Shown: positions 592 through 43,601, counted from the first letter of the stretch. The stretch: 64,000 nt of DNA from Phoronis australis (GCA_002633005.1 NMRA01000357.1:407075-471074); one strand, 5' to 3'. A program made the numbers and translations. The notes: generated by a model not told the origin, from the letters alone.

Positions 592-3500
592 AAAAATCGT
601 GCGATGTGCAGTCTTTTCCTGTCCAAGAAAATTTTGATATGACAAAGGTAATGCTTCAAACTTGAAAATTCGGGGGTTTACATGGATGAACCTAAGTAAA
701 TTACAGGTTCATACTAGAAAAATATGTCTTTAAATAGTATCGACAGACATGAAGCAAAAGGGCGAAAGCTTATGGCACACACTTTCGCTTAAAATTTTCA
801 AAACATCAAGATTGGTTGTTGCCACCCTGTGAAGCGTACATGTACTTGCAGATAAATCTATCGAAAACCAATCAGATGTCTTAGCCGGTTGACCCAGCGG
901 AACCAGAAGTCAGCTAAGTGAACCAAATGTGAAGCACCGACCATTTCTCTAATCTTCCCCTCTGACTCTGGAGATGCAAAAGGCTTAGATTCGCGTTTTT
1001 TGTGGTGATGGCTTTCACCTTTTTGTGGACGCTTTTGTTGTGGCCTGCGACAGAGATAAAAAAGGACCCCCGCCACTAGACCTTTTGCAGATTTCCATAG
1101 CAGACAAATTGGAGAAAATCACCATCTTGTTACATGATCTCGCACATGATCCATAGCCCTCGAAGTGGAAAACCAGCATGAAATCTTACAAATCTTAGGC
1201 AAATTCCCTGCCTGTGCAGTAGCAGGTTAGCACCATGACACCACGAGATGTGAGGCAAAAGTGCACCTTGTTTCTTATCTCTCCAAAGGTATATCTAAGA
1301 CTCGGGTCCTTCAACGTAAGAGTTAAACAATGTTATTTGTGGAGGATGGCTTATCCAAAAACCCGGTGTCAAAGACATGAAGTCTCAGGTCACAGTTATT
1401 ATTTGAGGACCGAGCAAGGTTATCCGCTCTCGCGTCCAACCGGACGCCAGCAAATCAAAAACATCTACCTATCTTTTCAATGAACGTGAAATCTGATAAT
1501 TTTATTACTTTAGATTACAGATGTTGGCAAGTGGTTCATAGTCCAGGAGGGAAATGTGACTGGGAAATGGAGGGCTGATCACGTTGTTTTCACCCCTGAT
1601 GAAAATGGAGAGATTCAGGTGTCATTCCACGATGGGGGAATAACAAACACAAAGCACGCTGTGAAAATATCAAGAGACAAACATAGGTAGATACTGCATG
1701 AAGCTAAACAGAAACATGTGGACTTGTATTATCTATGCAAAGTGCGTCATCGATTTATCAAGTACACAATTCATCAATTGCTTAAACGATGACTTGGTTT
1801 AAGACGGTTTCCGACTTTAACATGATACTAAACTATGTTTTGTTCAAGTTTACCCTCAACATATTGCCACTTGTTATTGTGCAATCTCTACGACACTTTT
1901 TCGTTGTGTCTTGCAGAGTGATCTCGCATGTCGTTCGAGGTAGTTGTTTTCAACAGCCCTCTATTCGTTTGGCCATATAAAGCAATAGCCAAGCTTGGAC
2001 ATTACATAGTCTGTATGCAGTTTCTATTGTCATCGAACCTTTTGAAAGTTTTTTATCGTACGTAACAGAGCAGTGTTTTGTTTCAAAGGGTCAAATAATC
2101 GTACTAATCTTTCTAAAAACACTACAGTCTGCAAATCCAGTATTCCGAAGTGGTTCATGTCATGAAATTAAATGTGCAAATGTGAGATGTGTGTATGTGC
2201 AATGATGTAGGGTGATAGTGAAGTACAACGTGCATGAGAGGCAATAATGTTTAACATGAGAGGAGGGCTCTCTGGAAGTGGCATCTACGTGTAGTGGTAC
2301 TAATGGAGGGATACAAAATGGTATTGGGAATGGCGATGGTGTGATGGACAATTTTATAGAATATAGAAAGTTTGCAAAAGTAGCGGCGGATTTCGAGGGG
2401 TTTGCCAGTTTAATGATTCGGTCATTTCAGTGAGGAGGTATAGTGTTATCTATTGATGGTCAATCTTGCAACTTGTCGTTGCACCATTTCAATCCTACGA
2501 GTCAGTGCTTTTGTGTGAGGTGACCATACTCTTGAACAGTAACCTAGTTTTGGTCGGACTAGAACGGCATAAGCTATTTCCTTGAGTAGTGTAACGAATG
2601 TGTCTTCTACGACAGTCAATGTCTTTACTGGCCGAACCAGCGATTATAACAATAAGTGAATTCCAGAGGAGATTGTTGGAAATAGTAATGCCAACATTTT
2701 AAGCCTCAGACAGAGGTGACAGGTGTGGGCAATGGAGAAAATGGTCTTGGAGGATGGGTTTCTTTTCCGATGCACGTGACGCATATTTCACTTTGATGCA
2801 TTGAACTACAAACCGAACACTGATTCTCAATCATCAAATTTGTTAAAAAACGGTTGGAGTGAGAAGCAGGGTCGTCTTGGGTCTGGATGAAGCGATAAAG
2901 TGTACAGTCTTCTGCAATGAGGGGATAATGTACATGTAAGATATCTTTTGAGGCAGGTCATTGATAAAGAGGAGGAAGATGACTGGTCCATAGTTAGATC
3001 CCTGAGCAGCCCCACAGGGCACAGGGGGGGTTGTCAGATGAGTTGTCCTCTAACAAAAGACACTGAATTACATTGTTGAGAAAGGAGGCATCCCAGTTCT
3101 TTGTGAGGACGCCAACCACAAAGAAACCATTTGTGTTAACAAGTCCAGAGCGAGATATTTTGTAGAAAGCTTTACTATCATACTTAGTGACGTCATCGAA
3201 CTGCATGCCTGAGTTTATATTGAGAAGGAGGTCGTTTGCGAAAGTGAGGAGTTGTGACTTACATGAAATGTTTGGTTTCAAGATGTTTCATACATGGTGA
3301 CTCACTGTGACGTGTTCAAGAATCTTGCAGCATGTACATGTAAGGAATATTGGGCTGTAACTTTTGCTTTGCGTTTTTTTTTCCTTTTTTGAAGACTGGG
3401 GCGAGGTTGGCGTGGTGCCAATCCGCTAGAACCACACCAGATAATAGTTAGGCATTAAAGATATCAGTCAGTAAGGGAGCTATTGGGTTTGATTGTTCCC

Positions 3501-6151: not shown

Positions 6152-9100
6152 GTATGGAAAACACAATAAGAGGACCCAATATATATGCTATCTGACGCAC
6201 GATACCACCGAATGAAAGCTAGTTTGATCACGTTAGACATGCTCCACAAGGTTGTTAAACCGTGGAACACAATTTTGCCAAAATATTAATCTCGTACCTG
6301 TGGTGATTGCGAGGACTGAATGAAGCAAAATACAGCACCAGTTCCTAACCAAGTTATTTAATAAAAGAAATCGGCAGCATATGCAAAAATGACAACATTT
6401 TCCACTCATTTCGTACTCTCGACGCCATATTGTCGCTGAGTTATACTACCGTAAAATGATGTCGTGATTTGTGAAAAGATATAAACGACCTAATTTGTAC
6501 TTGAATGCCATAGGTTGATTTAGAAACGGAACCGACCCACGAGATCTTCATCTGACAGAACCGGAAACAAGCGCTTTGTAGCCAAAAATGGCATTCTTGT
6601 CGAAATTAAGTCAAGATTGTAAAGTAATGCTATTGCAACTTACCCAACTAACTGTTTATTTTAAAATGCATTGGATTTTTCGGGCAAGTTGTCACAATCT
6701 CTACGAAAGGCGTGGAGCAATACCTGTTGAGAATTTGTTTAACTGGAAGTGAAACGTGTTCTAGTCGAAAAGCAAGAAACAATCGTACACTGTATGTCGT
6801 TGTTGCGTCAACGTGAGGACTAGTTAAATGTGCTGATTTATAGGTAGCAATTGGTTACCCATTGCCTATATTGGGTTGAATGCATGCATTAGTTGTCCTC
6901 ATGTCGACGACACACGTGTTACCAATAAATCATAACGTAATCTGTAGCAGTATATGATACCAAATTTTCTATGTGTTTATTGAGACTCACCAGTGTCCTC
7001 CTTTACATTTGATCAGACACAGAATGCAACCCCAACGTGACGATGATACAAGAAAACTTTGACATCGAAAAGGTACGAGAGTTCTCGGGAGAGTGTCTTT
7101 GTTTTTAACGTATTAAGGTTTCATTCATACATGTACACATGGTAACATTTCGGAATCAGTGCTGCCTGCTCTCCCTGAAAAAGATGTTTTGACTAAAAAC
7201 TCCACAATGTGTTTAACAATTGGCTAAAACATATATCACTTCTACAGGGTGCGACCAGAAAGCAGGCCCTAAGTTAGAAAAAAATTCACTAAAAATTTCG
7301 TTGGATGTCTGCGTTGACTTCTTATGAGCTCCCAAATCAACCAGCACATCTTACAGTGCGCCTACAGCCAAATGACGTCACCGATGGTGATGGCACCTGA
7401 TGGCCATTTTGCGCACTTTAAGTACCTCGTAAGACGGCACATAGAATGCTCTTGTGGACTTTGGTTTATACTGCTAATACACTTTTTGATCACACTTCCT
7501 ATGTGATGTTTCATAGCAAACCCACATGTGAACCTGGTAGTACTCTGAAACATTGTAGCAGCAAAAATAGCCAACAATTCGGAAAATTACAGTATTTTGT
7601 TACATAAACCTGGAAGATCTCCACAAAGGATTTGTGATAAGTGTGAAGTACGATGTAGCAGCCAGAGAAAAAAGTCTTTCTTTAAATGGCGCTTTTCTAA
7701 TGCATCCATTTCTGTAAAAAAGGAGTTTGGAATTCCATACAAGTCGGAATATTGGATTTGGTTAAAGATGAATGTTTAACCTATCGATACCAATGTTTTA
7801 GTTTATGACGGGTGAAAACTGGTACATTGTCAAAGAAGAAGGCGTACATCGGGTGGGAAAATGGAAAGCTGACCATGTCTTATTTACCAGGAACGACGAA
7901 GGTCTGATAGGCATGTCCTTCCATGACGGCGGTCTTCTGTCAGACGATGACGTTGAGGAAAAGGAACACAGGTAAATAAGTAAACTCGACCTTGTACAGT
8001 TTTTTTTTCAATTCACTCTGATGAAGTACGTCATATCAGACAACCATGATTAAACAGCGAAATCTGGCAAGTAAGTTGGAGGCCAGGCTAAACAGCGTAT
8101 AGACGCAACAAACGCGTAAAACGCAAGATCACGAAATTACTCCAGACACAATGGTACGCATTAGAGCTGACCAAAATGGTCAAACTAGCGATTTTCACGA
8201 GTGACCAGCGTTTAAGGATTAGGTGCCAGTTGCCTTCGATGGCTTACTGTGCGCATGCCCAGAGAAAGAGAAAGAATACCAGAAAATGTGTCTCATGATT
8301 GATTCGTCTGAGTCGGATTGCGTCGTTGTAAAAGGACTGCATATTGCATGTATATAATCGAACCTAACTTCTAGACCTTCGCTGAATAATGGGTCCGTAT
8401 GTTGGCATTCAAAACACCTAGCATGGACATTGACCCTGACAGAAGGTCTTTGCCACGACAAGGGGACAGTGAATGAAGACCAGTCGTTCACTCGGTTGTT
8501 CTGAGCGACTAATTATGTACCTTTGAGTTAATCAGAGTGGAGTCCAGGGCATCTGTGGCTGGTTGCATGAAACAGTCCTAAGTAGGGACTAAACTAAGTT
8601 CCCTAAATCTACTGCGTATTTGTGGACTTGGGAAAACACTGTCTGATTGTCCTTTACTATGCTGTTTTAATTTCATCACTATAAAAATTTTTGGCTTTGA
8701 TGCAAATCGAGAGTGAACCTCGACCTTGAATTCTCAATATTATTGAAAATGCATAGGGATCTTTACGTGCAACATTCTTAACTCGTACGTACAAACATCG
8801 TCACCATTTTCCTGTTTCCAGACATATAGATGGACATTTTGCTGTCGGGCAACAGCCAGGAGACTACCACTACGTTGACAGTACACACTCAAGTAAGGTT
8901 TCATTGCTGTTGCACAACCTAACTTGTTCGTTTCTTCCAACACTCGTGCATGAAGTTGTGTTACCCTTTAACAGCCTTTGGTACTACATTCAGAAATGAA
9001 CCTACTACCAACCGCCTTCTTCAAAAGTCAACCTGAGAGTCTGAGATTATTCCTTATCGGTATTAATACGCTTGTTTAGCAGGGTCTACGCACATGTCCG

Positions 9101-12100
9101 TGTAGAATTTCATTTCAAACGCTTATATTCTGGTTCCTCTTGGAATATTCTCAGTACTTCGTTTCTCTGCCGTGCCGTAGCGACTAAACTGAATGCCGCT
9201 TTGTACTGTTTTTCAGCTCACATGCGATTCGTCTGGACCGATTACTCGAGCGCTTTAGTTTACGAGCAGCTCTTGTCTGAGGCAAATGGAAGTCGTCTAT
9301 CGGCTAACGTTGGAGACAGCGCCGTCTATCATCTGAGTAAGACGTTGCGGGTACCCGAGGAGGAAAGTAAAACTGTCGGGGAGGTCAAAGATCAACTGTA
9401 CCCTCAACTTTGCTTGAAGCGTCCTCGTACGTTATTTTTTAGATCATTCGCGTGCGTTACTCGTTTTGATTATTTATTGGAATACGCATAACAACTGTGG
9501 GAATTATGAAGGCACCATTTCAAAGCAATTGTTCATAATTTCTCTTACTTGCAAGCTTTCACTTCATTTTCACATCGTTCTTTAAAAAAGCAATTGAAGC
9601 TTCTCTTAACTTTGATACCATTTTGATCTGCTCTAATGGCTTCTGTCGAATTTTTAATAACACACCCCTAAAATACTTTAATTGACGCTGGAATGGATTA
9701 TGTCTCTTGATCACAAAATACCATTAAGCCAAACATAAATTAGATTTTTTTTCAGAAAAGAGCAACGGGCATCAGGTACCCACCCTTGAGACGTCCAACA
9801 CAGGTAAGGTAGTGTTCAATACTGTCTTTTTTCATTAGATATGTACACGTAAATGCACGCATAAAATTAGTCTTTAAAATGTTTTGGCAACAAGAGATGC
9901 TTCGCATGCATATATCAAAAGCACTTCGGAAGGGACTAAAGCCTTACCAGGTGCAATTTTCGGTACAACTTGTGTATTTGAATTTTAGGAAAATGCAATG
10001 CGTCGAATCAGGTAGCGGGCAATTTCACCATGCATAAGGTAAGTTACCTGCGTACAATTGAACTGTGAACATTTCAGAGCTGAGATTGATTGCGTCAAAG
10101 CAGTGTAATCGGTTTTACGATCGACGCAATTTTGGGACTATTGCAGATGTGATAAACTCTTTGAAGTTTGAGTTATATTTGACCAGAGCTAATAGCTACA
10201 GAATACTTTGTGTTTGAGCGATTTTAAACAAATCCCCATTTTACGCCATTTTCTGCCAGCCATTCACTGAAATCGAGGCACCTGACCTTTGCTAGTTGAG
10301 TACACTTCAAGTACTCTTTCATTTTTCTAGAAGGGTTTACTGTGTTTATCCGCCTGCATAGTGTTGAACTGGAACCGCTGGTTTTATGAATTTGATTCCG
10401 TGTTAGGGCTGATCTCAAACAAATGCTTTTCTCGCCGATAAAACCACTATAAGCAGGGGTTGCCTGCTGTATGATGTGACATGGTAATGCTACGAATAAA
10501 GAAGTCATTGACACAATCCACTGTTATTGCTTGTAACAAGGATTGGCCCAAGGAAAACATGTATGCAGTAGTTGAGACCGTTGGACGAATTTCCGTTCTA
10601 GTGATACAGGGCTCCATTTCATGAAAGTTTAATCACAAATTTCATTGTTGGCGTGATGACAGCAGTTTTGTTATGGTGTTAGTTAAGACTAAAATAGTTT
10701 TGTGAAATGGGGACCAGGTTGCACAGTACGTAAGATCTTACTGAAAAGACGGTCTATTTAGTCATGTATCTAATAAGCTATAAATTTTAGTTCAATAAGG
10801 TACATGTACGTATTTGCTGAAGGTTGAGATAAATATAATTTTGAATTTTATCTATATGCTCTAAACCGGGTCTCTTGCCAATGTCTATTACAAACATTTA
10901 GCAGTGATAACAAAACAACGGCATCAACAACATGGCCTGATGTTGTTGATATAAATGTTTAACGTGAAACCTCAAAAAATCTTACAATTTTCTAAATTAC
11001 CATTTCCTCTTTTTGTGAGTTTTTGAATAGTTTTTGATAACCCTTCACACAAAAGTAGAATAATTTACAAACAATTACTAGCTTTGAAGACGCTGCATAA
11101 TTTTCTGAAAGTTCCATATAGTCTAGACGCATTTCCTGAAAAGAGCCCTATATAAGATTCTAGAAGCACTTTTAGTAAAAGTTGGGAACAAGACTTTTTC
11201 ACACAATCAAGGTATGGCGAACTCAACTAACCCTGTTCCCAAGCCGAATTTTGCATTTTTTTGACCATCTAATTTGCATAAACAAAATGGCGGCCAAATT
11301 GTCAAGTTCAGATGTATTTTTGTAATAGAAATCACCAGATACCATTTAAAATGGTGAAATGTCTCACCTGTACACTTCTTATAAGCACTTCTTGAGCAAT
11401 ACATCACTTATGAATACTGAAAATGCAACTCTGAAAACTAATTATGCAAATTAGGTGCCGCCATTACCATACAATGTAATTTGCGTCTTAAGTTTGTGTT
11501 CCTGCAGGCTAACTTGAAAAATGAGTTGTTTATACTTATATTTTCATGGTCAAAAAACATGCTAAAGACATTTTTGGAGCAATTTATTTCATATTTATTG
11601 GGTTATAGATGTATACTTACAGAATGGGGAAAAAATAGTCATTAATCTGCAATGCTCGTCAAGCAAGGTGTCACTAGTTTGATGGAATATAAGGACAAAT
11701 GTTCACACTATCCCGTTATCTTCCATTCATAAAAAATCAATATAGTTATTGTTATTGAAGACATTAAATTCTCAGTTGCATGAATCATTTTCAGGCCTGC
11801 TGAACACAATTTTAGCATTCACTTTTTGGTACTTTTTAACATGCCTAAAGCCAGGCAAATCAAACTGTTTGCATACAAGGAACATGCTGGTGGCATGAGC
11901 ATAATGATATGCATTGTCTGCTGTTGCGCTGTTTCTGGCATGCACACAATACCATCTCCAGGCAGCTGTCTGGGATAGAACTCTGTGTCATCAGTATGGG
12001 CTGCAAGCATAAGTTTGTGTGTCCCTCCCATATCAGAGGGTGCTGGGAGCTTAGGTATGGAGGACTTCTGGGTTCACGGGGTTGGAGAATAGTAAATGGC

Positions 12101-33100: not shown

Positions 33101-36100
33101 GCATGCTGGCACCCTCCAAGGGAGGTTGGGAGACTTTGCACTGGTAGCCTGCCCTTGTAGAATCTGCAGTTTATTTACACAACTGGTAACTGGACTCTTG
33201 AGGGTGATGACTGACATCATTTGTATCAAACAAAGATACTTAGTCCGGTCCCTTAGCAGCCAAAAACCCCAAAACATTTACACCCCGGATTAAAGCACCA
33301 AATTTGGTACACAGATACTTTGGGACACGCTGAATCTCATGGGGGTCGGTTGCCCGAAATTTGAGGTCAAGGTCAAGGTCAAATCAAGGTCAAAGGTCAT
33401 GTGGGTAATTTTTTTGAAATGGCTTCAGACGAAGTATCTGTTTCATTACTGTTTCAGGTGATAAGCAGGAGGCTTTATTTTTGGTTAAAATTAATGTTAA
33501 TAACTTGTAAAAATAAGTTGAAAGTAAAAAAGTAATTTTCCAGACACTTAAGATGGTAATTATCCTAATTAATAGAGCATATACATTTTCAATGAAAAAT
33601 AAGTCTATTTGTTTTCTCTGGCTGAGAAAAACTGTCAAACTAGTATGAATATGCATTAAATCAACTCTAAAATGGTTTACCTTTAACAGAAGTTCATTTT
33701 TAAATGTTTTTGTTACAATATTTATGGTTAATTATGTAACAAATCGTCTCCGTAATTAAAGGAAATCGGACATCTTGCTAAATTTTCAAATAACAATTGC
33801 TGAAACTTTTATCATCATTTTTAATTTGATCATAGCTGAAGGTAACTTTGTTAATTAATGTGTTTACATTTTAGTTTGAACTTGATTGTCACATAAACTA
33901 AACCAATTAAAGTAATTTAGGTCATTGATGGTTTCCAGTAGAATGAAATAAAAAAGTCAGGTTTTACTTGGTGTATCACAATAAGGTGAAGCCCTTGTTG
34001 CACTATACTTTAAAACAGGTCCAGGCATAATGATTGTCTTGAGGAACATGTCCATTTTTAAGGTTTGTGTCCATCCAGTTAGTTGTGTTGACAAATTATG
34101 TAACAAGTGAAGCTGACCCTTGCTCATCCAGACAACAGTACCCAAGCAGGTGACCTCAGGTCTGAGACTCGCATGATGTTGACCTCCAGTTCATTGCTCT
34201 TGTACTATTATATTTTGATTGAGGTTTACTAATTTAGGTATGTACTTTTTTGAGTAACTATGTACATAAAAATATCCTAAATTGATTTAACTTATTGGAG
34301 ATAATCATATCGCGTTTGGTGGTGATAGACCGACCCAAAAAACCTCGCCTCATTTTCGAATAGGTGGAAATTCCTGAGAAAACCACAAACCTTTGAGTAA
34401 AATGCGATTTCACGCCTATACACATTAACTCTATTCCGATACATTTGCTTGTATGCCAGGCCACGGACAGTGCTGTTCTTGAATGGAATTATTTACGGAT
34501 TTTTAGGCAAACCTTTGGCAAATGCGACTCGACTTAGAATGAACAAAAACATACCGTTTTAGTCGACATAACTTTCAATATTTTAATATGAAAAACAAAA
34601 TAACCGAATGCTCGGCCGCATTCAACTCACAGGCAGCAGACGTCTTATCACTGCCGTAAATCATGAGAAGCTCAAAAGTAAGTTTTACACAACCTCTGCA
34701 TACTAAGTATCGTGGCCATTCGCAGTAGGCCCCATTACCCGCGGACGCAGGACTCAGTTCAGACACTCAACTGAGCAAAAATTATTTATCATGCCGCAAC
34801 CTCAGAATTCACTTTGTAACATACCACAAAAGCATTTTTCTTAATTCTTAGATTTTGAGGATTGACGAAAGTCACGATACATAGAATTATCCAAGTCTAT
34901 ATGTGACTCGTCTGATGTTACTTGGTCCGTACTGATAGGCTAAATCAGTGGTTAACTCGGTTTACGAGTTCTCATGACCTCCACTGGGGGCGCCAGCATG
35001 CGTGTGACGTCAGTGGACAAAAGGGAATTTGGCCAACATTCACCATTCTGCACTGCTTACTGAGTACAGTGCCCAAGTCAAAGGATCCCGCCGACACGAT
35101 ACCCGCAAGTGAGAGAAAAGGAGAGACAAATTGGATTGAATTAATGTATGGTTTTTATAGCGTATACATGTAAGTGTCGGTACAATGCCCTTTGTTGAAC
35201 ATGTGATTATTGCGTGTGCTCAATTATAACTATTCTATTTTCGCGTTAGATGACGTCAGCGGCTGAGTGGTGCAGTTAAGTCTTGGGAAGCAGGTTCGAA
35301 ACCGGCCGCGGTTTCCCGCCAAAATGTTTTCTACTGTAACGCCGTTTAATAACTGAGTGGGTCATTACACTGTTGTATTGGCCATTCGAGGCTGGTATTG
35401 TGGTATAAAAACGTTTTTATACTCCGCTACACAAATCTCGTAATGTAAGAAGCCACATTAAAAAATCGACCTACCGTAATCGTCAGACCAGGTCGACTGG
35501 TCGGCCACAAGTTTTTACATTTCAACACCGAAGAGTCGCTAGGACTATGAGACAGTTTCCCTATCCTGTGCAGGTCCCTAAGCTGTACTTGTAGCCCTGA
35601 TCAATCGATAAACCGGGATCTGTTTACCACAAGATTACCCGAGGTGTTCCAGGTGCCTCAATGTTGTTAAATTGGGAGAAATGACAGAGCGATACATCAT
35701 TGCTTACGCCTTGTTACGTGGGGATAGTCATCTAGAACCTCATAGCATTAGGGTTGAGGAGATTGACAACGGCAAACTCTCCAGAAGAGGCGTAACTTTG
35801 CTTCGTGCTCAGTTCTTTTGAATAATATATTGTTTGAAGTAGGCGTCACCAGATGCCAAGTACTGCGCGTGTTGACTGTGACACGTGATACGGATAACTC
35901 AACTCCTTGCTATATATACCATGTATGGTTCACTTTCAGAAAAATGTGTTGTTAATCAGCGAGTGGCCCCAAACTTTGACATTCACAAGGTAAGACGTAG
36001 TGTATTCATTTCCCGGCCGCCCATGTTGGACATAAGACTATTAGATCCCAAAAATCATTATTGGTTATGGTCTCTCTCCCGACTAATGGTGACACCTGCG

Positions 36101-39100
36101 CTCACCAACTAAAAATAAAAAACGCCCGTCCGCCTCAGATTTGTTTGTTTTTTGTTCATAAAGCTGCAAAAACGTATTTAAGGAAGGATACGCAATGTTT
36201 GAAAAATCAAGAATTTGCTAAGCGATGAGTCAAGAAAGCAGAACCCGCATCATCTTTGTTGGTCTCAGTTGGATTTTCGTGTTTGAAAAAGGGCGCCTAA
36301 ATATTCCACCGCCTCGATTTTTAAAAATAGCAAGGACAAGAATCAACTATTTTTTGCTCTCCGACCACTAGAAACATTCTTCTATTCGTCGATATTTGAG
36401 TGTAAAACATTTTGATCTCAGCCCCATTTCCAAGGAATGACTGTGAAAACAATAAGTCACACATCTTGATCAACTTTGCAGAATATGTGCGCAATTGTCC
36501 GGCAAGAACTTTGTTGTTTTTTTGTGAAATCAGCACACAACAGGCTTAGACTGTTGATTTTGTTTACGATTATTGAAATTCTTATATGTCTGACATTAAT
36601 TCTAAATTTGAACTTCTAAACAACACTAAATATACATGTATCCAACACAGATTTCCAAATAGGGATCACTCAGTTTTTGTGCAGTGACACCCAGACAAGA
36701 AAACGTGAAACAATCATTGGACATTAATAGTATGGGAGTCTTCCCATTATTACTGAACTACGTACGACTATTTTTTTTGGTTTGATCACACTAAACTTTT
36801 TATTGCGGTGCCTAAATAAGTGAAGAAAGTTGGTTTTTTTATTTCACCCATATCTGTGTAAGAAATCTTCTTGTACAAGACTTTCGGCGACAGAAATCGC
36901 TGTCTATGACAGCCTTGTTTGAAATATAAATTGTTAACTTTCCTTTCGCGCGACAGAACGTAAAATTAATGTGTGTGCACGACCCAGAATTTTTAATTTG
37001 CAACTTAATAAATTTAGATGTTACGTTAATTTTAAAAACGAAGAAGACATGTCGTCAACAACAAATAATAAAAAAGAATTATATCTTGCGAACCCCAGCT
37101 CATGGGTGAGTAAGGTGCATTTGCATTTGCATTTGCTTTTGCAACTGCTTTTGCTTTTGCATACATTTACATTTAGGGCAAAGGAAACCCAAAAACATTT
37201 AAAGGATGGCGTAGGGTTGCACATATAATCCGCTTCTTCATTTTTCCTTAAGCTTTAAATCAAGATTTTGCACGTCTCACTTAAAGCTAATGGGCTCTGC
37301 TAGAAGAATTGTGCGTACGCTATTTCACAAACAGCTTATATGGGAAGATTTAAATAAAGCAAATGAGTTTTTGAATGTTCTAGTTCGTAGGGAAGTGGTA
37401 CATTGAACAAGAAACGCGCGTGCATGTAGGGAAATGGCGCGCAGATTACCTCGTCATCAAAGAAACAGAGCAAGGCGTTGGCATTGAATTTCACGGTGGA
37501 CCTTTTGATCAGGGACAGTAAGTATTTTGCTGATCGAATCCCAAAGTTAACCAAGATAGTTTTAGTAAATGATCACGTGAATTTACAAGTACGTTTCAAT
37601 ATTTCTGTTTGTGGTGTACACTGTACGTCCTCGGATTTGGGATGCGAGCAAAATGTGAATTCATTTAGATTGGTGCACATTTGTAATATTAGTTTTATGC
37701 ATTGGTTGTTCACACGTGACCAGAAACGAAGATTTGAATGTGTTCCCATAACTCAACATTACAACCTCTCCAAAACATCATTTTAGCTATGAACATTTTG
37801 ACAGCCATATACTCGCTCAGCCCTTATCTCACTCGCGTGATTTTGAGCAGTCTTGCGTGATATCCATTTTCTTGCAAGAAATCCGAACGCAGCCCAGCAC
37901 ACTCACACAGTCGGCTTTCACATGGTCAAGGCCCAATTTATACCCTAAACCATTTTCCCTGTAGCACTCCTCAGTCCCTGACTCCGGCATACTGTCACCC
38001 TTACCTTGGTAACAATCAATTGTTACCATGCATACATGTTAAAACTCACGGAGTCCAACTGGTAGCTAGTACTCTAAGTTTCGTGTCCATCAGGCAGTTG
38101 TAACCCTACCATGCGATTAATGTTCGAATCTTCAGTCCGACGCATTTTGAGTCTTGCGCTAGCGGACAAAATAATAAAATCTGGCCGGAATTAATTTAAC
38201 AACCGACACGTCAGCAAGGTTTGAAACGCCATGATTTGCAGAATGATGAATGAAAAAGTCACGTGCTCTCCTCTCGGGTATGTGTTCGTTTTTTGAAAAG
38301 AGCGAACAACGAATATATCCTGCACATATTCGATTTTCAAAAATGCAGACCAGTGTGCTTCTTAAACTACTAATTGAAAATTATTTGCAGTTATGTGAAA
38401 GGCAATTTAACTGAGCAGTCACAAGCAGTTTTCAAGTACTCAGACGCCTTGCATACAAGTAAGTAACATTACGAAGTACAAGCGACATTATGTGCAATGG
38501 CTGCTGGGTTTGTACCATATTAGGACTCGCTCCGTAAAACAATCCGTTTATTACCTCTTACAGGAACACTGTCGCTTCTTCGGGTGAAAACGCATCTTTG
38601 TGATCATTGTTGGCAAGGATAGACTTCTTGAGGTTATGAGCATTGAGCAGAACTATAACTCAACAACATTGTGTTTCGTGATTATACTACAAATCTCACA
38701 TTCTCGCCACCTACATGTATTCGTTGAAATCAAGCCCGGAGTTTTTACCAACTGAACACACTTTTACTGTTTGTTAAACATGATAAAACATGCCTTTGGC
38801 GGCATTTACAGTTCATGTTTGGATTGGGGCTAAGATCTGCCTGCAGAGCTATAGTCTGCCACCATGTGGATACCTTGTTCGATTCCTCGCTGAGTGATAT
38901 CTCAGAAATGTATTTTTCTTGCCCATAATGTCCCTTTGAAGGTACACGTTTGTTAAATTATATTTTCACTATTTCCAGCTCATTTCCGCGTCGTGTGGAC
39001 TACCAGTAACCTGACATTGATCTACGAAAGCCTCATAAGCTCTCATGATAGACTTGGTAGCCATGGGAATTCGGACGCCTACTTCCTTCATAGGCACCCG

Positions 39101-42100
39101 AAACTGTCGGCAAAAGAGCTTCAGTTGATGAACGAGTCATGGGTGGACATCATATCAATGTTTTGTTTAACTAAATACCAACACATTCCTAAGGAAGGTG
39201 AGCCAGGTGAAGGTCCCTGGACCTGTGCTACGATCAATTAATATAGTTAGCTTTTAAGTTTGAACTCAAACATTAACCTTGTCACCTCTGACAAGGCATA
39301 ACGAGAACTTTTGGAATGTATTGGAATTAACGTACCCCTGGGTGGAAAGTTCTAAAAAAATTTAAAATTTCCTGTACAGTCCACCGTATCATCACCATCA
39401 TTATGTCTGCATACAGCACCAGAATTACAGAAAGTGCATCATTCTAAATCACAGGGAGCGGTGAGTCAGCAAGCAGCGGTGATGGCAGCGGTGAAACCGG
39501 ACCCAGCTTTAGTAGTGGTGACGTCAGCAGTGGCGAGCTGGACAGTAGCGCATCTGTTGAAGGAAGTGGCGTCGGTAGCGGTGATGTGGGCAGTGGTAGC
39601 GTTCATAGACTGACAGGTAGGAATTTAAAATAGAACTTAGCAAAATTGGTTCTTATTCTGGTTCTTCCTCCCCACTTATTTGGATACCTGCGCTTACGGA
39701 CTAAAATCCTCCAATTCATCAATTTCTGATAAAGTCTTGTTTTTTGTCTGAAAATATGCAAAAAATCACGAAAACAGGGATCAGCTAGGTTTGCAACTCC
39801 ATGATTTGTCAATTAATAATTTAAAAATATCGAATACCGCGTGGGTCTTTTTACTATTAAAATATCACACCAATCGATTTTCCGAAAAGAAGAGAACAAA
39901 ACCACTTCTGCACCTTTCGGACTAACCCTGTGTTTTGCATAAAAACGGTTTCATCAGAATTAGCGCAACCTAACACTAGTTACAGTGTAACTAAAACGCT
40001 ACCTCACCATATTAAACAAGAGCAACACGGAGCGTTGAAATGCACCCACGAATGCACCGCTAACGCTGTGCTTCTAGAGGTGTTTATTTGGAACATAAAA
40101 ATGGCAACTGGAGGGCGCAAAATATGTCGAATCCATTCAAGAACTTGTATGTGTCATCAAAGCTATTAATCAATTTTCATGAAAATCCGTCAAGGAACTT
40201 TTGAGGAAACAGAGGAAAATGAAAAAATGAAATTGTCACCAAGAGGCACCAAAGTAGATAAAGCAGGAAAATAATCGACAGACTTCCTCTTGCCATTAGG
40301 AACATAAATGTCTCTTTCCACAACCATCCTTCGAGTAGTTTGATTGACAGAGGGGCAGACGGCAAATAACAAGACTCCAGAACAGTAAAAATGGCCACAA
40401 CATGGCGCAAAATGCCCCGAATTTTACCGAAAACCGGATGATAGCGTCACCTCATTAATAGATGCCTAACTGCCAAATTTTATCAAAATCTATTGGCGAC
40501 CCTTTAAGATAGAGAGGTAAACGTAAAAAATTAAATTGCTACTATGGGGCACACGGGTAGCCCGATCTGTCCGAAAGTCGCCATCCTCTGTTGTCAACTA
40601 CATATAAATACATTAGCAAAATTCAATAAAGATTCTATAGAGCATTTAGGAGATACAAACAAAACTGCCACCAGGAGGCGCCAAAGTATTCCAAGTCATC
40701 GGAAAAGCATCGTCAGCCGCCCTCTTCACAGTAAGAACATATATGCCAATTTTCAAATCATCCCTAGAGCGAAAACAGTAAAAATGGCCACTAGGTGGCG
40801 TAAAGTACCCCGAATACGTCCGAAAACGGGAGGATGGCATCATCTCGCTAATAGATGTGTAACTGCCAAGTTTTATGAAAATCCGTTGAGGACCTCCAAA
40901 TCTACAGAGGTAAGCGTAAAAATTAAAATTGCCACTAAGGGACACACCAGTTGTCGGAGAGGTTTGTTGTCATCAATTGCCACCTTCATGGGAACACATC
41001 TGCCAAATCTCATTACGATCTTGTGAGGGGTTTAGGAGATAAAGCCATGGGCTCAAAAACAAACAAAACTGCCACTAGGAGCCAACACAGTTGTCGAAGT
41101 CGACGGAAAATCACCTCAGTCGCCCTCTTCACCTTAAGAACATATATGCCCATTTTCAAATCATCCCTAGAGCGGTTTGCTTGATATAACGATAAACGCC
41201 AAAAACAGACTCGAAAACAGCAAAAATTGCCACTACGTGACGCAAAGTACCTCGAATCCGTCAGAAAACGGGAGGATGGAATCATCTCACTAATAGATAC
41301 CTATCTGCCAAAATTTATGAAAATCCGTTGAGGACATCCGAAGATACAGAGGTAAGCGTAAAAAGTTAAAATTGCCCCTGCGGGCTACACCGATTGTCCG
41401 AGAGGTCCGAAATCCGTCGTCGTCAGTCGTCAGCTTCACAGGAACACATCTGCCAAATCTCATCAACACCCTGTGAGGGGTTTAGGAGATACAGCTGCGG
41501 ACGCCGGACCACGGACGCCGGACGACGGACGCCCAGACAGAGATGGCGGAAACATGCAACCACATATAAATATGTGGGCGCATAAAAATAAATTATTTCA
41601 GTGGTTCGAAGTGTTCGTTATAGTGTTCATGAACTGGCGTCAAGCGATATAGTAACGCATGCCGACTTGCCAAATTTGTGAGAATTCTACACTTTCAGAG
41701 AATTCAGGAGACGACTCTACAATGGAGACGTGCACGACGCGACGAGACAGGATAAAAGAGAGAATCCAGAAGGGCTCTGAATCTGACACTGATGCGCTGG
41801 ACCAGAACGTCCCTGTCTGTGAACAGGACGGTAGTTACAGTGCCAAGCAGTGTAGAGGTTCTAGGTAAGAATCTTCAGCCGGTTCATGTTCGACAAATGT
41901 GACCACGCGTCCGCAAAGCTCCTTTATTGTGTTTGAAAGGAGAGTGGGGTTGGCGAAACAGATTATTTAAATTTCACGACGTAACAATGGAAAGATAAAC
42001 ATGTATAAAGTATCTGGTAAAGCATTTATCTCAAATTGGCATAAACTGCTTCACTTAGATGACATAACGAAGACAAAAGGGATCGCGTCACAATTGCTTC

Positions 42101-43292
42101 GGCTGACTAATGGTTTATTTTGGTTTGGTTATATAGTTCAGAGTGATAGAAACGGAAGTGCCAACGTTGCCTGGCTACCACGAAGGGCCTTATTTTGGAC
42201 ATGGCACAATTTGTGGTTTTCGTGTACAGTGTAGGAGACCTACATATTCGTTGCGACAGATCTGGAAATAAGTTTGTAGGGCAGCTTTCTCTCAGTCATT
42301 GACACTTCATATCACCATGAAGAATTTGCTGTATTCTCAGATTGTATGCTCATACTGTATTACACGTCGTGTATATTCAGGTGCTTCTGTGTGAGTCCAG
42401 ATGGCAAAGAGATCGAGAACTTCCTTGGAGTCGATAGGCGGAGCTCTGACCATCTCACATGTGGTATGGCCACTGCTTTATGTATTGTAAAATGAAAAAG
42501 TTTAGAAGCTTATCTGGGCTGCCACTCATGAACGGCTGGCATATAGCGCACATGTATGTTACAAGTGAATGTTGTGCACGATTTTCTTTTTGCAAAATCT
42601 CCCGCTTTGCACACGTGCAGAAAGCCAAGACATGCCGACCATTTTGCATAAACTGCGTTTACAACTTTAATATTTCGTGTCAGTGTTACTTAAACTTTCG
42701 CGGAAAAGCTTTACTCGACTTTCGCAATGCTTTGTATTCAATCCATCACTCTTGTCGTGTTTTCTGCAACAGGTTGTGCCAGGGAACACTACTCACAAAT
42801 GACGGCTGGTAATGACCATCCAACCGTACACTGCGACAATGTAGGAAATTATCATCAGGTTCAGTGTAAGGAGGGGGCGTGCTTTTGTGCAGACCCGAGC
42901 AGTGGCGCGCCAGTCGAAGGCACTCAACTTCCAGAAGCGGAAAAGAAGAAACTGGAAGTAAAATGCGTTATGGAGAAAAAGCGTAAGTGAAAGAAAAATA
43001 ATTAGTGTGATTAATCCGATCAAAGCAAAATAATTCAGAACTGTGTGCGATGAGATCTTTAATAAAGTTTAAAAAATTAAAAAATCGATTTCCCGAGTAT
43101 ACTTGTTCACTGCTGTTGCTGCTCTGCGTTGTAAAAAGCAATAAATTGGCATGACCGGAGAGACGGTAGAGGATTATCATTATTCTGTGAAATTACAAAA
43201 TTGTAACTATTAAAATCATATTCCTAATCACTAGTTCCATCTTAATTTCAGAAACAATGATGCCCTCGGAGGCTAAAGAAGGGCCACATTAA
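592..43292 (+). CDS. Multi-exon gene (34 coding exons, 5' end not found in window): 7 tandem lipocalin domains + Ser-Gly putative GAG-attachment segment + 2 thyroglobulin type-1 domains
   Basis: Exons: 592-647,1514-1686,4224-4294,5951-6151,7017-7072,7802-7971,8822-8892,9217-9426,9756-9803,9989-10038,18723-18856,19100-19167,20920-21138,21362-21411,21676-21809,22729-22796,23648-23866,25565-25614,25738-25871,26090-26157,27406-27624,28886-28935,29229-29362,30033-30100,30821-31039,35940-35989,37384-37517,38391-38458,38979-39197,39455-39616,41699-41864,42381-42463,42773-42982,43252-43292. All are AG/GT bounded and phase-compatible, with no internal stops; 4073 nt ending in TAA at 43290-43292. No start or signal-peptide exon identified. 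Confidence 0.88.
2150..3460 (-). mobile_element. Decayed non-LTR retrotransposon (CR1/L2/Jockey-like) reverse transcriptase fragment
   Basis: Minus-strand RT motifs YSPIFLTCTCCKILEH, SCKSQLLTF..DL, YDSKAFYKI (DFSKAFDKV-like) and QGSNYGPVIFLLFINDLP, broken by frameshifts. Boundaries approximate. Confidence 0.8.
3575..3788. mobile_element. CATG-ended MITE with 5-bp TSD (GATAT), hAT5-like family
   Basis: TIR CATGTGCGCACCCAG...CTGGCTGCGCGCATG; GATAT on both flanks; homologous to copies at 23146, 26461, 52342 and 58271. Confidence 0.75.
7017..9426 (+). CDS. Lipocalin module 2 (exons 7017-7072, 7802-7971, 8822-8892, 9217-9426)
   Basis: TECNPNVTMIQENFDIEK|FMTGENWYIVKEEGVHRVGKWKADH...|HIDGHFAVGQQPGDYHYVDSTHS|HMRFVWTDYSSALVYE...QLCLKRP. 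Closest to module 1 in sequence and exon sizes. Confidence 0.9.
9756..9803 (+). CDS. 48-nt phase 1-1 linker exon between modules 2 and 3 (KSNGHQVPTLETSNT)
   Basis: Strong polypyrimidine acceptor TTTTTTTTCAG and donor CAG|GTAAGG; open in the required frame; symmetric, so it could be skipped. Confidence 0.7.
9989..21138 (+). CDS. Lipocalin module 3 (exons 9989-10038, 18723-18856, 19100-19167, 20920-21138)
   Basis: KCNASNQVAGNFTMHK|FVGRWYIAHDNQVTPGKWRADH...|YITGRLTEESSGKYMYSDDTHS|HLRVVWTDYNTALVYE...AYFIHRERELS...HLCLTS. Exon sizes 50/134/68/219. Confidence 0.9.
10610..10714. mobile_element. Small Harbinger-like MITE
   Basis: Imperfect TIR GGCTCCATTTCATGAAA / TTTGTGAAATGGGGAC flanked by CAG on both sides. 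Confidence 0.45.
11119..18441 (-). mobile_element. Decayed Academ (AcademX-type) DNA transposon in intron of module 3
   Basis: About 180-bp imperfect TIRs starting TAGTCTAGACGCATTTCC and ending GGAAATGCGTCTAGATTA; 3-bp TSD ATA (11116-11118, 18442-18444). Minus-strand remnants: TVLTVDQAL, RAHKLSLQALW, NYAR, RTGDKSSLA, IDIVFDRY, HEEADARLVLHA and AFHAVTG (XPG/PIN-like nuclease). Confidence 0.85.
12994..16474 (+). mobile_element. Decayed Sola3 DNA transposon nested in the Academ element
   Basis: TTAA on both flanks (12990-12993, 16475-16478); TIR GAGACAGTCCATATAAAAACCA vs reverse complement AAGTGACTCCATATAAAAACCA. Transposase remnant at 14129-14494: SGNAGCYH...RYDFSESQNGKDLCDRKIAPLK. Confidence 0.82.
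19884..20124 (-). mobile_element. tRNA-derived SINE with 12-bp TSD
   Basis: Minus-strand A box TGGCCTAGTG and B box GGTTCGAGTCC; flanked by direct repeat TTTAGGTGAAGT (19872-19883, 20125-20136). Confidence 0.8.
21362..23866 (+). CDS. Lipocalin module 4 (exons 21362-21411, 21676-21809, 22729-22796, 23648-23866)
   Basis: TCEPSDRKQDDFEMEK|FTGKWYIYHGNFVHVGKWRADH...|YVKGTLTLKSAAEYIYSDSTHT|HIRILWTNYNFGLLYE...AYLIHRKRDLS...TMCLTHH. Exon sizes 50/134/68/219. Confidence 0.9.
23146..23400. mobile_element. CATG-ended MITE with 5-bp TSD (CGCAT), hAT5-like family
   Basis: CATGCGCGCACCCAG...CTGGGTGCGCCCATT; CGCAT on both flanks. Confidence 0.75.
25565..27624 (+). CDS. Lipocalin module 5 (exons 25565-25614, 25738-25871, 26090-26157, 27406-27624)
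   Basis: ICKPSDRAQEGFNIAK|FTGKWYIHQGTHLHVGKWRAEY...|YVKGVLTPKSTAKYEYSDESHS|HFRIVWTDYNFALIYE...AYFIHRHRNLS...GLCLTRH. Exon sizes 50/134/68/219. Confidence 0.9.
26461..26715. mobile_element. CATG-ended MITE, same family, TSD eroded
   Basis: CATGCCCGCACCGG...GCTGAGGGCGCCCATG; internal sequence is the reverse orientation of the 23146 copy. Confidence 0.65.
28886..31039 (+). CDS. Lipocalin module 6 (exons 28886-28935, 29229-29362, 30033-30100, 30821-31039)
   Basis: MCKPSDKVQEGFEMGK|FTGKWYITHEKHVHVGKWRSDH...|DVKGMLTQESPGIFVYSDGTHS|HFRVVWTDYNIALVYE...AYFIHKHRELS...NLCLTSQ. Exon sizes 50/134/68/219. Confidence 0.9.
33047..35055. mobile_element. Non-autonomous TIR element (about 85-bp TIRs) hosting an Academ terminal fragment
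   Basis: 33047-33133 (CACTGCAGAATGCTGAATGTTAACCAAATCCCCTTTTGTCCACTGACGTCA...) is an inverted match to about 34970-35055. No clear TSD; superfamily uncertain. Confidence 0.65.
33241..34426 (+). mobile_element. Left-terminal 1.2 kb of second Academ family (copy 1, truncated)
   Basis: Starts TAGTCCGGTCCCTTAGCAGCC; near-identical to 60905-62099. Confidence 0.78.
35940..39197 (+). CDS. Lipocalin module 7 (exons 35940-35989, 37384-37517, 38391-38458, 38979-39197)
   Basis: KCVVNQRVAPNFDIHK|FVGKWYIEQETRVHVGKWRADY...|YVKGNLTEQSQAVFKYSDALHT|HFRVVWTTSNLTLIYE...AYFLHRHPKLS...MFCLTKY. Exon sizes 50/134/68/219; TDY motif replaced by TTS. Confidence 0.9.
39455..39616 (+). CDS. Ser-Gly/acidic exon, putative glycosaminoglycan attachment segment
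   Basis: GSGESASSGDGSGETGPSFSSGDVSSGELDSSASVEGSGVGSGDVGSGSVHRLT: 8 SG dipeptides flanked by D/E; phase 1-1 exon, CAG acceptor and CAG|GTAGG donor. Confidence 0.82.
40014..41587 (-). mobile_element. Helentron-associated non-autonomous element (HINE/DINE-1-like) with internal ~400-bp tandem repeats
   Basis: Minus strand begins TTTTATGCGCCCAC, then palindrome CCACATATTTATATGTGG and a GTCCG microsatellite. It ends with the matching sub-terminal IR GTGGGTGCAT, hairpin CAACGCTCCGTGTTG and CTTGTTT. Repeat units start near 40381, 40772 and 41214. Confidence 0.7.
41699..42463 (+). CDS. Thyroglobulin type-1 domain 1 (exons 41699-41864, 42381-42463)
   Basis: C-TTRRDRI...VPVC-EQDGSYSAKQC-RGSR-CFCV-SPDGKEI...LTC: six-Cys pattern with the PxC..DG.Y..QC and C[WF]CV..G motifs. 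Confidence 0.88.
42773..42982 (+). CDS. Thyroglobulin type-1 domain 2
   Basis: CAREH...TVHCDNVGNYHQVQCKEGACFCADPSSGAPVEGT...KC: six-Cys TY pattern; acceptor CAACAG, donor C|GTAAGT. Confidence 0.9.
43252..43292 (+). CDS. Terminal coding exon (TMMPSEAKEGPH-stop)
   Basis: Acceptor TTAATTTCAG, in frame with the previous phase-1 donor; TAA followed about 300 nt later by AATAAA. Confidence 0.6.
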
Positions 43293-43595
43293 GGATTTGG
43301 CTTCTTCGAGCTGCAAACATTGGATAAATTTGCGCGGAAACTATAAACTGTAATCATTTATGATGTGCATGACTCAATTCAGTGTGAACCAGCCTACAGC
43401 ATTGTCAAGGTGACGCTAACGCATGCATTGTAACCTGATGTGTGTACTTTCTAGTCACAATTGTATGGCTTGAACAAGCTCAGTCATACGCGCTATAAGC
43501 AAAATTTGTGATTGCGGAAATTGTCATTTTTAATGATGCTTCTAAGTAAGTTGTTTACTCGTCTCGCTAGATCGTGAAATTTAATGTACACCAGG

Positions 43596-43601
43596 AATAA
43601 A
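43596..43601 (+). terminator. Probable polyadenylation signal of the lipocalin-repeat gene
   Basis: AATAAA followed about 25-45 nt later by a T-rich tract (GGCTTTTTTAATTTTCTCTTT). Confidence 0.55.

What the first reader, a model, noticed from the sequence alone, without database searches (positions are those of the whole stretch)
592..43292. Seven-lipocalin / Ser-Gly / twin-thyroglobulin mosaic protein hidden across 34 small exons
Seen: the exons splice into one open frame of about 1357 aa with the architecture (lipocalin)x7 - SG/acidic - TY1 - TY1. Established: animal lipocalins are nearly always single ~170-aa barrels (pufferfish PSTBP, with two lipocalin-like units, is a known exception). 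TY1 domains often inhibit cysteine cathepsins and occur in testican/SPOCK proteoglycans and saxiphilin. I do not recognise this combination from any described protein. Inference: a secreted, multivalent ligand-binding proteoglycan, e.g. a matrix- or mucus-anchored sponge for metal, pigment, toxin or lipid, protected by its own protease-inhibitor domains.
Basis: partly seen in the sequence, partly recalled or inferred. Interest (0 to 1): 0.92.

Follow-up and report, generated by a model that had tools for sequence, protein, structure and literature searches.

The report
Seven-barrel lipocalin with thyroglobulin tail
This is a real, expressed animal gene for a large protein made of at least seven lipocalin-related repeats, a serine-glycine spacer and two thyroglobulin-type domains; it is likely secreted and likely works as a many-pocket carrier for small molecules, and unstudied sea-urchin proteins have a similar layout.

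Summary
34 AG/GT exons join into one 1356-aa frame. RNA-seq lists 24 of 33 joints, including every joint between modules and into the tail. The 5' end lies upstream of exon 1 and was not found. The repeats are divergent lipocalins: HHalign 98% to RBP4-like sea-urchin modules, lipocalin intron phases 0-2-1, GxW and TDY-like motifs. Both TY1 domains pass Pfam. Multi-lipocalin chains are the named insect polycalins (PMC10145054). Three sea urchins have uncharacterised (lipocalin)x6-TY1 proteins, and Owenia, Haliotis and Mytilus have long lipocalin arrays. What is particular here: the seven modules form their own clade, keep only two cysteines, share invariant Glu/Asp/His residues, and are followed by a Ser-Gly stretch and two TY1 domains, which echoes vertebrate AMBP. 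Secretion, glycosaminoglycan chains, cathepsin inhibition and the ligand are untested. No whole-barrel model was obtained. Verdict: new variant of polycalin-type proteins.

The parts
592..43292 (+). Whole coding span in the window: 34 exons, 1356 aa plus stop, 5' end not found
   Evidence: RNA-seq joints
592..6151 (+). Lipocalin module 1: exons 592-647, 1514-1686, 4224-4294, 5951-6151
   Evidence: joint 4294>5951 and loose ends for 1686>4224; 36.3 bits to urchin profile; joint 647>1514 not tested
7017..9426 (+). Lipocalin module 2: exons 7017-7072, 7802-7971, 8822-8892, 9217-9426
   Evidence: 15.5 bits to urchin profile, the weakest, against a decoy maximum of 9.5
9756..9803 (+). 16-residue linker exon, phase 1-1
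   Evidence: both joints in reads
9989..21138 (+). Lipocalin module 3: exons 9989-10038, 18723-18856, 19100-19167, 20920-21138 (8.7-kb first intron)
   Evidence: 83 reads across the 8684-nt intron in each run; model of its last exon
21362..23866 (+). Lipocalin module 4: exons 21362-21411, 21676-21809, 22729-22796, 23648-23866
25565..27624 (+). Lipocalin module 5: exons 25565-25614, 25738-25871, 26090-26157, 27406-27624
28886..31039 (+). Lipocalin module 6: exons 28886-28935, 29229-29362, 30033-30100, 30821-31039
35940..39197 (+). Lipocalin module 7: exons 35940-35989, 37384-37517, 38391-38458, 38979-39197
   Evidence: model of its second exon
39455..39616 (+). Ser/Gly/acidic exon (17 Ser, 13 Gly, 9 Asp/Glu in 54 aa; 8 SG pairs), candidate glycosaminoglycan attachment region
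   Evidence: joints; GAG use inferred
41699..42463 (+). TY1 domain a, six Cys: exons 41699-41864 and 42381-42463
   Evidence: Pfam PF00086 27.9 bits, cutoff 20.6, on the first exon; joints
42773..42982 (+). TY1 domain b, six Cys, single exon
   Evidence: Pfam PF00086 35.9 bits; joints
43252..43292 (+). Last coding exon with TAA; first AATAAA/ATTAAA downstream at 43596
   Evidence: poly(A) site not mapped

Best explanation
One expressed, spliced gene encodes a chain of at least seven lipocalin-homologous modules, a Ser-Gly/acidic spacer and two thyroglobulin type-1 domains, and it likely works as a secreted, polycalin-type, many-pocket carrier or sponge for a small extracellular ligand. Shown: gene structure, transcription, lipocalin homology, TY1 identity, and an expansion of one four-exon cassette flanked by phase-1 introns whose copies group with each other, not with sea-urchin modules. 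Inferred: each module folds as an eight-stranded barrel with one disulfide between its two cysteines. The invariant Glu that replaces the Ser of the relatives' Y-S-C motif, with invariant Tyr, Asp and His, would make the pocket more polar than that of RBP4, so the ligand is more likely an amphipathic or cationic small molecule than a neutral retinoid. The SG stretch would carry glycosaminoglycan chains that hold the protein in matrix, mucus or body fluid. The TY1 pair would dampen cysteine cathepsins or act as a docking module.
For: Frame and splice sites. 24 of 33 joints in stranded RNA-seq at similar depth along the gene, 45-106 reads in X2 and 48-119 in X3. In X4, joint counts fall from about 40 at the 3' end to 0 at the module 4-5 joint, as expected for one long 3'-anchored mRNA. 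A profile of 18 sea-urchin modules scores all 7 window modules at 15.5-36.4 bits; the best of 1235 scored shuffles (of 1400) reached 9.5 and reversed modules 0.9 or less; HHalign 97.96%, E 2.8e-13 over 138 columns. Those urchin modules pass Pfam Lipocalin/Lipocalin_2 and match RBP4 best in the PDB, E 6e-19. Internal intron phases 0,2,1 match the start of the 0,2,1,1,1 lipocalin pattern (PMC3184775, passage). The model of the last exon is three strands plus a helix, pLDDT 78; its highest-probability Foldseek rows are RBP4, sandercyanin and crustacyanin, prob 0.69-0.82. Atlas feature neighbours of that exon are lipocalin clusters at 0.86-0.91. 26 Cys, 12 N-glycosylation sequons, no transmembrane or GPI-like hydrophobic stretch. 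25 invariant columns in 7 of 7 modules. All three urchin relatives end in a TY1 domain, and P0001 begins with a hydrophobic, signal-peptide-like N-terminus read by eye.
Against: No signal peptide is in the window, so secretion rests on relatives and composition. None of the 11 lipocalin-module exons scanned hit a Pfam lipocalin family. PDB sequence searches with exon profiles gave no hit for exon 4 and only E 0.85 to odorant-binding protein for exon 2. Foldseek E-values were all above 0.4 and VIA-align Z was 5.0 or less, with non-lipocalins at the top. The Atlas recognition value was below its threshold, and exon 2 gave no hit. No whole-barrel model exists. Which residues face the pocket rests on alignment and on my recall of the RBP4 structure; the strand-B register differs between HMMER and HHalign. 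Short reads chain the joints but do not show one full-length mRNA. The reads differ from the window at fixed sites, so they come from another individual, population or close species. No ligand, tissue or GAG data.
Confidence: 0.6

Rival explanations
1. An AMBP-like polyprotein: the chain is made as one precursor and then cut into free lipocalins and a separate GAG-bearing twin-TY1 protease inhibitor, as alpha-1-microglobulin and bikunin are released from AMBP.
For: The order lipocalin - SG - two inhibitor-type domains parallels AMBP. The lipocalin-inhibitor fusion is stated in PMC8420045 (passage); bikunin's chondroitin sulfate and twin Kunitz domains are recalled. A 75-residue cysteine-free stretch separates module 7 from TY1a.
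Against: No R-x-K/R-R site anywhere, and no dibasic site in the 7-12-residue linkers or the SG stretch; the one linker KR, after module 2, is followed by Pro.
Confidence: 0.12
2. A metal-binding or pH-switched scaffold: the conserved Asp/His cluster at the hairpin between exons 3 and 4 (D-x-x-H-x-x-H), with other His residues, binds a transition metal, and the barrels serve as a rigid multivalent display in a structural secretion.
For: His is 4.8-8.3% per module against 2.5-3.5% in the seven marine relatives. D79 and H82 (module 4 numbering) are invariant and H85 is in 6 of 7 modules.
Against: A His-rich hairpin can be purely structural. No model places these residues together. The aromatic core motifs of ligand-binding lipocalins are kept.
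Confidence: 0.15
3. A structural or adhesive matrix proteoglycan in which the barrels are spacers or protein-binding beads and the pockets are vestigial.
For: Very long lipocalin arrays occur with Ig and vWA domains in Haliotis and with at least 25 units in Owenia, layouts typical of matrix proteins. The modules have lost two of the three disulfides seen in the relatives.
Against: 25 positions are invariant across modules that are only 32-62% identical, several of them predicted to face inward.
Confidence: 0.12
4. A cluster of separate single-lipocalin genes next to a TY1 gene, joined only on paper.
For: Tandem arrays of single lipocalin genes are common (PMC8420045, passages).
Against: All six module-to-module joints and all tail joints are seen in reads at depths like the within-module joints. 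No module has its own Met, signal exon or stop.
Confidence: 0.01

Closest known systems
Sea-urchin LOC584238-type proteins (Strongylocentrotus XP_030853519, Lytechinus LOC121428339, a Diadema protein; all named 'uncharacterized')
   Same: Tandem RBP4-like lipocalins followed by a C-terminal TY1, about 1300 aa; best hit of the exon-4 profile among 1.84 billion representatives.
   Different: Six modules with about six Cys each and one TY1, an antistasin domain in two of three, no SG cluster (at most 2 SG per 55 aa). The window has 7 or more modules with two Cys each, 9 clustered SG and two TY1. Modules are not one-to-one orthologous; TY1 identity is 22-31%. A joint window+urchin clade is neither shown nor rejected (p-AU 0.26).
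Lepidopteran polycalins (Bombyx chlorophyllide-binding protein; Plutella, Helicoverpa, Spodoptera)
   Same: One polypeptide of many lipocalin-like domains; 'polycalin' was coined for this (PMC10145054, passages).
   Different: Insect midgut proteins with about 15 units. The Spodoptera multi-lipocalin found here (P0014, named 'apolipoprotein'; polycalin-like is my reading) has no TY1 in Pfam and its modules form a separate clade.
AMBP (alpha-1-microglobulin/bikunin precursor)
   Same: Lipocalin fused to a protease inhibitor (PMC8420045); SG-linked GAG and two tandem inhibitor domains (recalled).
   Different: One lipocalin, Kunitz rather than TY1 domains, and cleaved at a basic site (recalled). 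No such site here. An analogy only.
PSTBP, saxiphilin, testican, tick IrThy
   Same: PSTBP is a duplicate-fused lipocalin-type toxin binder (bioRxiv 2020.04.19.048728, passages). Saxiphilin and IrThy carry two TY1 domains; testican-1 is a TY1 proteoglycan that inhibits cathepsin L (PMC10889554, passages).
   Different: None combines a lipocalin array with TY1. No sequence link to them was found or tested beyond the shared domain families.
Multi-lipocalin proteins of Owenia (5687 aa), Haliotis (1332 and 3267 aa) and Mytilus (1086 aa)
   Same: Long tandem lipocalin arrays, unnamed in databases. Haliotis modules give the best whole-module scores to the window profile, up to 35.5 bits.
   Different: No TY1 in Pfam for the Haliotis and Mytilus proteins; Owenia was too long to scan. 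They keep the extra cysteines.

Membership tests
Lipocalin (calycin) family | SCR1 G-x-W motif after an N-terminal Cys/F-D segment | tested here: met
   W invariant in 7 of 7, G in 6 of 7, Cys and Phe invariant; aligns to urchin SCR1
Lipocalin (calycin) family | SCR2 T-D-Y motif | tested here: met
   TDY in 5 of 7 modules, TNY and TTS in the other two
Lipocalin (calycin) family | SCR3 basic residue after strand H, then a helix and a Cys | tested here: met
   Arg or Lys in 7 of 7, invariant Cys; helix 44-60 in the exon model
Lipocalin (calycin) family | Profile-level homology to established members | tested here: met
   HHalign 98% and 7 of 7 modules above all decoys against urchin modules that pass Pfam; indirect, one step removed
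Lipocalin (calycin) family | Direct Pfam Lipocalin hit above the gathering score | tested here: inconclusive
   Only single exons were scanned; 0 of 11 hit; whole modules not scanned
Lipocalin (calycin) family | Eight-stranded antiparallel barrel with a cavity | tested here: inconclusive
   Fragments only: exon 2 all-beta, exon 4 three strands plus helix with weak lipocalin matches
Lipocalin (calycin) family | Conserved intron phases 0,2,1,(1,1) | tested here: met
   0,2,1 in 7 of 7 modules; pattern from PMC3184775; the last two introns are absent
Lipocalin (calycin) family | Binds a small hydrophobic ligand; secreted | not testable with these tools
   5' end not found; no binding data
RBP4/ApoM-type lipocalins | Three disulfides | tested here: not met
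   Two Cys per module; three-disulfide pattern per PMC8420045
Polycalin (descriptive sense) | Many lipocalin-like domains in one polypeptide | tested here: met
   7 modules, all inter-module joints in RNA-seq
Lepidopteran polycalin (orthology) | Modules group with insect multi-lipocalin modules | tested here: not met
   Window modules one clade (SH-aLRT 100), Spodoptera P0014 modules another (97) (quick tree; only one insect protein included)
Thyroglobulin type-1 domain | Pfam PF00086 above cutoff; six Cys with Q-C and C-x-C-V/A motifs | tested here: met
   27.9 and 35.9 bits against 20.6; six Cys each; Phe replaces the usual Trp
Thyropin (MEROPS I31) | Inhibits cysteine or aspartic cathepsins | not testable with these tools
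   Specificity differs greatly among TY1 domains (PMC10889554)
Proteoglycan | Clustered SG with acidic neighbours | tested here: met
   9 of 9 SG in residues 1137-1200 have Asp/Glu within three residues
Proteoglycan | GAG chain actually attached | not testable with these tools
   Needs chondroitinase/heparitinase shift or glycoproteomics

The most novel reading that the evidence does not exclude
Marine invertebrates have an undescribed class of giant polycalins, expanded separately in sea urchins, Owenia, abalone, mussel and this animal. This member is a convergent invertebrate counterpart of AMBP: a GAG-anchored, protease-shielded sponge whose seven barrels have been rebuilt with acidic and histidine pockets to sequester cationic small molecules (amines, guanidinium toxins) or metal.
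Probability: 0.2. Interest if true: 0.78.

Novelty: new variant of a known kind. Interest (0 to 1): 0.52.

Why it matters
Reviews treat lipocalins mostly as single-barrel carriers, with polycalins as an insect-gut oddity. This gene and its database relatives show that long lipocalin arrays, some joined to TY1 domains, recur in at least three marine phyla, and my searches found no paper on them. A 154-kDa-plus chain with seven diverged pockets, a likely GAG tether and likely protease inhibitors is a testable model for how invertebrates store or neutralise small molecules outside cells. It is also a clean case of a phase-1 four-exon cassette being multiplied.

Tried and rejected
No whole genome is held for this window, so the 5' end could not be followed. 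An in-window start was considered: four ATG-to-donor candidates lie in 1-591, none with a clear signal-peptide core; not tested with reads. The word-index search with the exon-4 profile among longer proteins found 0 of 7407 candidates (weak evidence). The full HMMER search gave 3 proteins at E<=0.001 and none close, so no near orthologue was seen. PDB sequence searches with exon profiles were blank or E 0.85. VIA-align on the 72-residue fragment was uninformative: Z 5.0 or less, lipocalins among many unrelated folds. The run search listed no indexed holder on record as RNA; raw-read runs with the same species label were laid instead. The back-joint 23866>21674 (23 and 28 reads) is read as mis-mapping, because module 5 lay outside that lay and its second exon begins almost like module 4's; back-splicing is not excluded. 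Separate single-lipocalin genes: rejected by the joints. One-to-one orthology with urchin modules: not seen in the tree (careful search unfinished, quick tree; 53 of 69 relative modules kept, 16 short or weak ones dropped; Mytilus not included). Ten paper searches found no description of a lipocalin-array plus TY1 protein, of LOC584238, or of marine polycalins. I saw listings and abstract starts for these, and passages only of PMC3184775, PMC10145054, PMC3695081, PMC8420045, PMC10889554, PMC10987296 (nothing relevant) and bioRxiv 2020.04.19.048728. The library lacks most subscription journals. No supplements were read, and proteome tables there could list the urchin protein. Twenty other ORFs of the window gave no Pfam hit at E<=0.01.

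Full report
Observation. Self-searches and a splice-site scan of the window recover seven copies of a four-exon cassette and five tail exons. All 34 exons have AG acceptors and the 33 internal ones GT donors. Joined, they read 1356 codons to a stop at 43292, while the other two frames hold 61 and 103 stops. Intron phases run 1-0-2-1 in every module. Modules 3-7 have the same exon lengths (50/134/68/219 nt); modules 1 and 2 differ. The first exon begins in phase 1 without a Met, so the protein (154 kDa so far) is incomplete at its N-terminus. No genome is held to extend it.

Expression and splicing. Raw RNA-seq runs carrying the same species label as the best holder were laid on 3900-23899 and 23500-43499. 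The tables list 24 of the 33 predicted joints, 13 and 11, all from the + strand. Loose ends support a 25th. Every joint between modules, and from module 7 through SG, TY1a and TY1b to the last exon, is listed, with 45-106 reads in X2 and 48-119 in X3. In X4 the counts fall from about 40 at the 3' end to 0 at the module 4-5 joint, which fits one long mRNA; one tail joint (41864>42381) shows 0 in X4 and is unexplained. The reads differ from the window at fixed positions, so they are from another individual, population or close species. Among the 23 exonic differences shown (a subset of truncated tables), 21 codons give 9 synonymous, 12 non-synonymous and 0 stop changes against a neutral synonymous share of 0.21 (p 0.017), which is mild purifying selection. 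Short reads do not prove a full-length transcript.

What the modules are. Single exons do not hit Pfam lipocalin families (0 of 11) or the PDB. A profile of the seven fourth exons found three proteins among 1.84 billion: a sea-urchin, an Owenia and an abalone protein, all arrays of lipocalin-like domains. The urchin modules pass Pfam Lipocalin and Lipocalin_2 and match RBP4 best among solved structures (E 6e-19). A profile of 18 urchin modules scores all seven window modules at 15.5-36.4 bits against a decoy maximum of 9.5, and HHalign gives 98% over 138 columns. The GxW, TDY-like and terminal Arg/helix/Cys motifs are present. The 0,2,1 intron phases match the lipocalin pattern quoted in PMC3184775 (passage). 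A model of the last exon shows three strands and a helix; its most probable Foldseek rows are lipocalins, but no E-value is significant and VIA-align is uninformative. The Atlas puts that exon beside lipocalin clusters, below its recognition threshold, and gives nothing for exon 2. I rate lipocalin homology at about 95%; the complete barrel is not modelled.

What is particular. Each module has only two cysteines, where the relatives have about six. The relatives' Y-S/T/Q-C motif is Y-E-x in 7 of 7 window modules, and 25 columns are invariant, among them Asp79, His82, Glu100 and Tyr118 (module 4 numbering). By alignment to RBP4, and my recall of which RBP4 positions line the cavity, Glu100 and Tyr118 would face inward. 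That suggests a polar pocket, but it is inference. His is 4.8-8.3% per module against 2.5-3.5% in marine relatives. In a quick ML tree of 60 modules the seven form one clade on a long stem (SH-aLRT 100), whereas urchin modules group by position across three species. The array was therefore built or homogenised in this lineage. A window+urchin clade is neither shown nor rejected (p-AU 0.26, 38 modules).

The tail. A 54-residue exon has 17 Ser, 13 Gly and 9 acidic residues. Nine of the protein's 12 SG pairs lie in residues 1137-1200, each near Asp or Glu; the eight relatives checked have at most 2 per 55 residues. Two six-cysteine TY1 domains follow, both above the Pfam cutoff, 22% identical to each other and 22-31% to the urchin TY1. 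There is no transmembrane or GPI-like segment and no furin-type site. TY1 domains inhibit cathepsins in p41, saxiphilin, equistatin and testican-1, with very different specificities (PMC10889554, passages), so inhibition here is a guess.

Mechanism. Most likely (0.6) this is a secreted polycalin-type carrier or sponge: seven or more barrels on 7-22-residue linkers, a GAG-bearing spacer, and a TY1 pair that guards against cathepsins or docks the protein. The gene, its splicing, the homologies and the residue patterns are shown. Secretion, barrel closure, pocket polarity, GAG, inhibition and ligand are inferred. Rivals are a metal or pH-switched scaffold (0.15), an AMBP-like cleaved precursor (0.12), a structural bead chain with vestigial pockets (0.12) and separate genes (0.01).

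Comparison and novelty. Many-barrel lipocalins are a named kind, the polycalins of moth and butterfly larvae (PMC10145054, passages). Six lipocalins plus a TY1 occur in Strongylocentrotus, Lytechinus and Diadema database proteins, all labelled uncharacterised. Arrays of at least 25, 15, 6 and 5 units occur in Owenia, two abalones and Mytilus. Ten literature searches found no description of the marine proteins or of the lipocalin-TY1 combination, within a library that lacks most subscription journals. The order lipocalin - SG - twin inhibitor domains parallels AMBP (fusion stated in PMC8420045; the rest recalled). The organism is not known; the nearest relatives are marine invertebrates.

Verdict. 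A real, expressed gene with no close relative in the searched collections. Interest 0.52.

Noticed in passing
window 11170-18398: The 8.7-kb intron in module 3 holds an element with long inverted ends (arms 11170-11312/18258-18398 and 11440-11611/17957-18128, 70-87% complementary) and broken ORFs on both strands with no Pfam hit. Reads cover it on both strands. It looks like a decayed DNA transposon; the intron is still spliced out.
   Followed up: partly
P0001, P0012, P0013 (sea urchins): A conserved, uncharacterised protein with six RBP4-like lipocalins that keep the extra cysteines, an antistasin domain in two of three, and a TY1 domain; modules are conserved by position across the three species. 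It may bear on the origin of RBP4-type lipocalins.
   Followed up: partly
P0002 (Owenia), P0003 and P0011 (Haliotis), P0015 (Mytilus): Unnamed giant lipocalin arrays: at least 25 units in 5687 aa in Owenia; 15 units with vWA and Ig domains in Haliotis asinina.
   Followed up: partly
window 23866>21674: Back-going joint in 23 and 28 reads; probably mis-mapping between the similar starts of the second exons of modules 4 and 5, but back-splicing was not excluded.
   Followed up: partly
window 41864>42381: Run X4 shows 0 reads for this joint while its neighbours have 27 and 40: a splice or allele difference, or a table artefact.
   Followed up: no
window 40000-41600: Repeat with several internal copies in the intron after the SG exon, heavily covered by reads from the opposite strand; probably a dispersed repeat transcribed elsewhere.
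   Followed up: no
window 43300-64000: No ORF with a Pfam hit among the 8 tested; an assembly gap of N near 54.3 kb. Small-exon genes there were not searched for.
   Followed up: no
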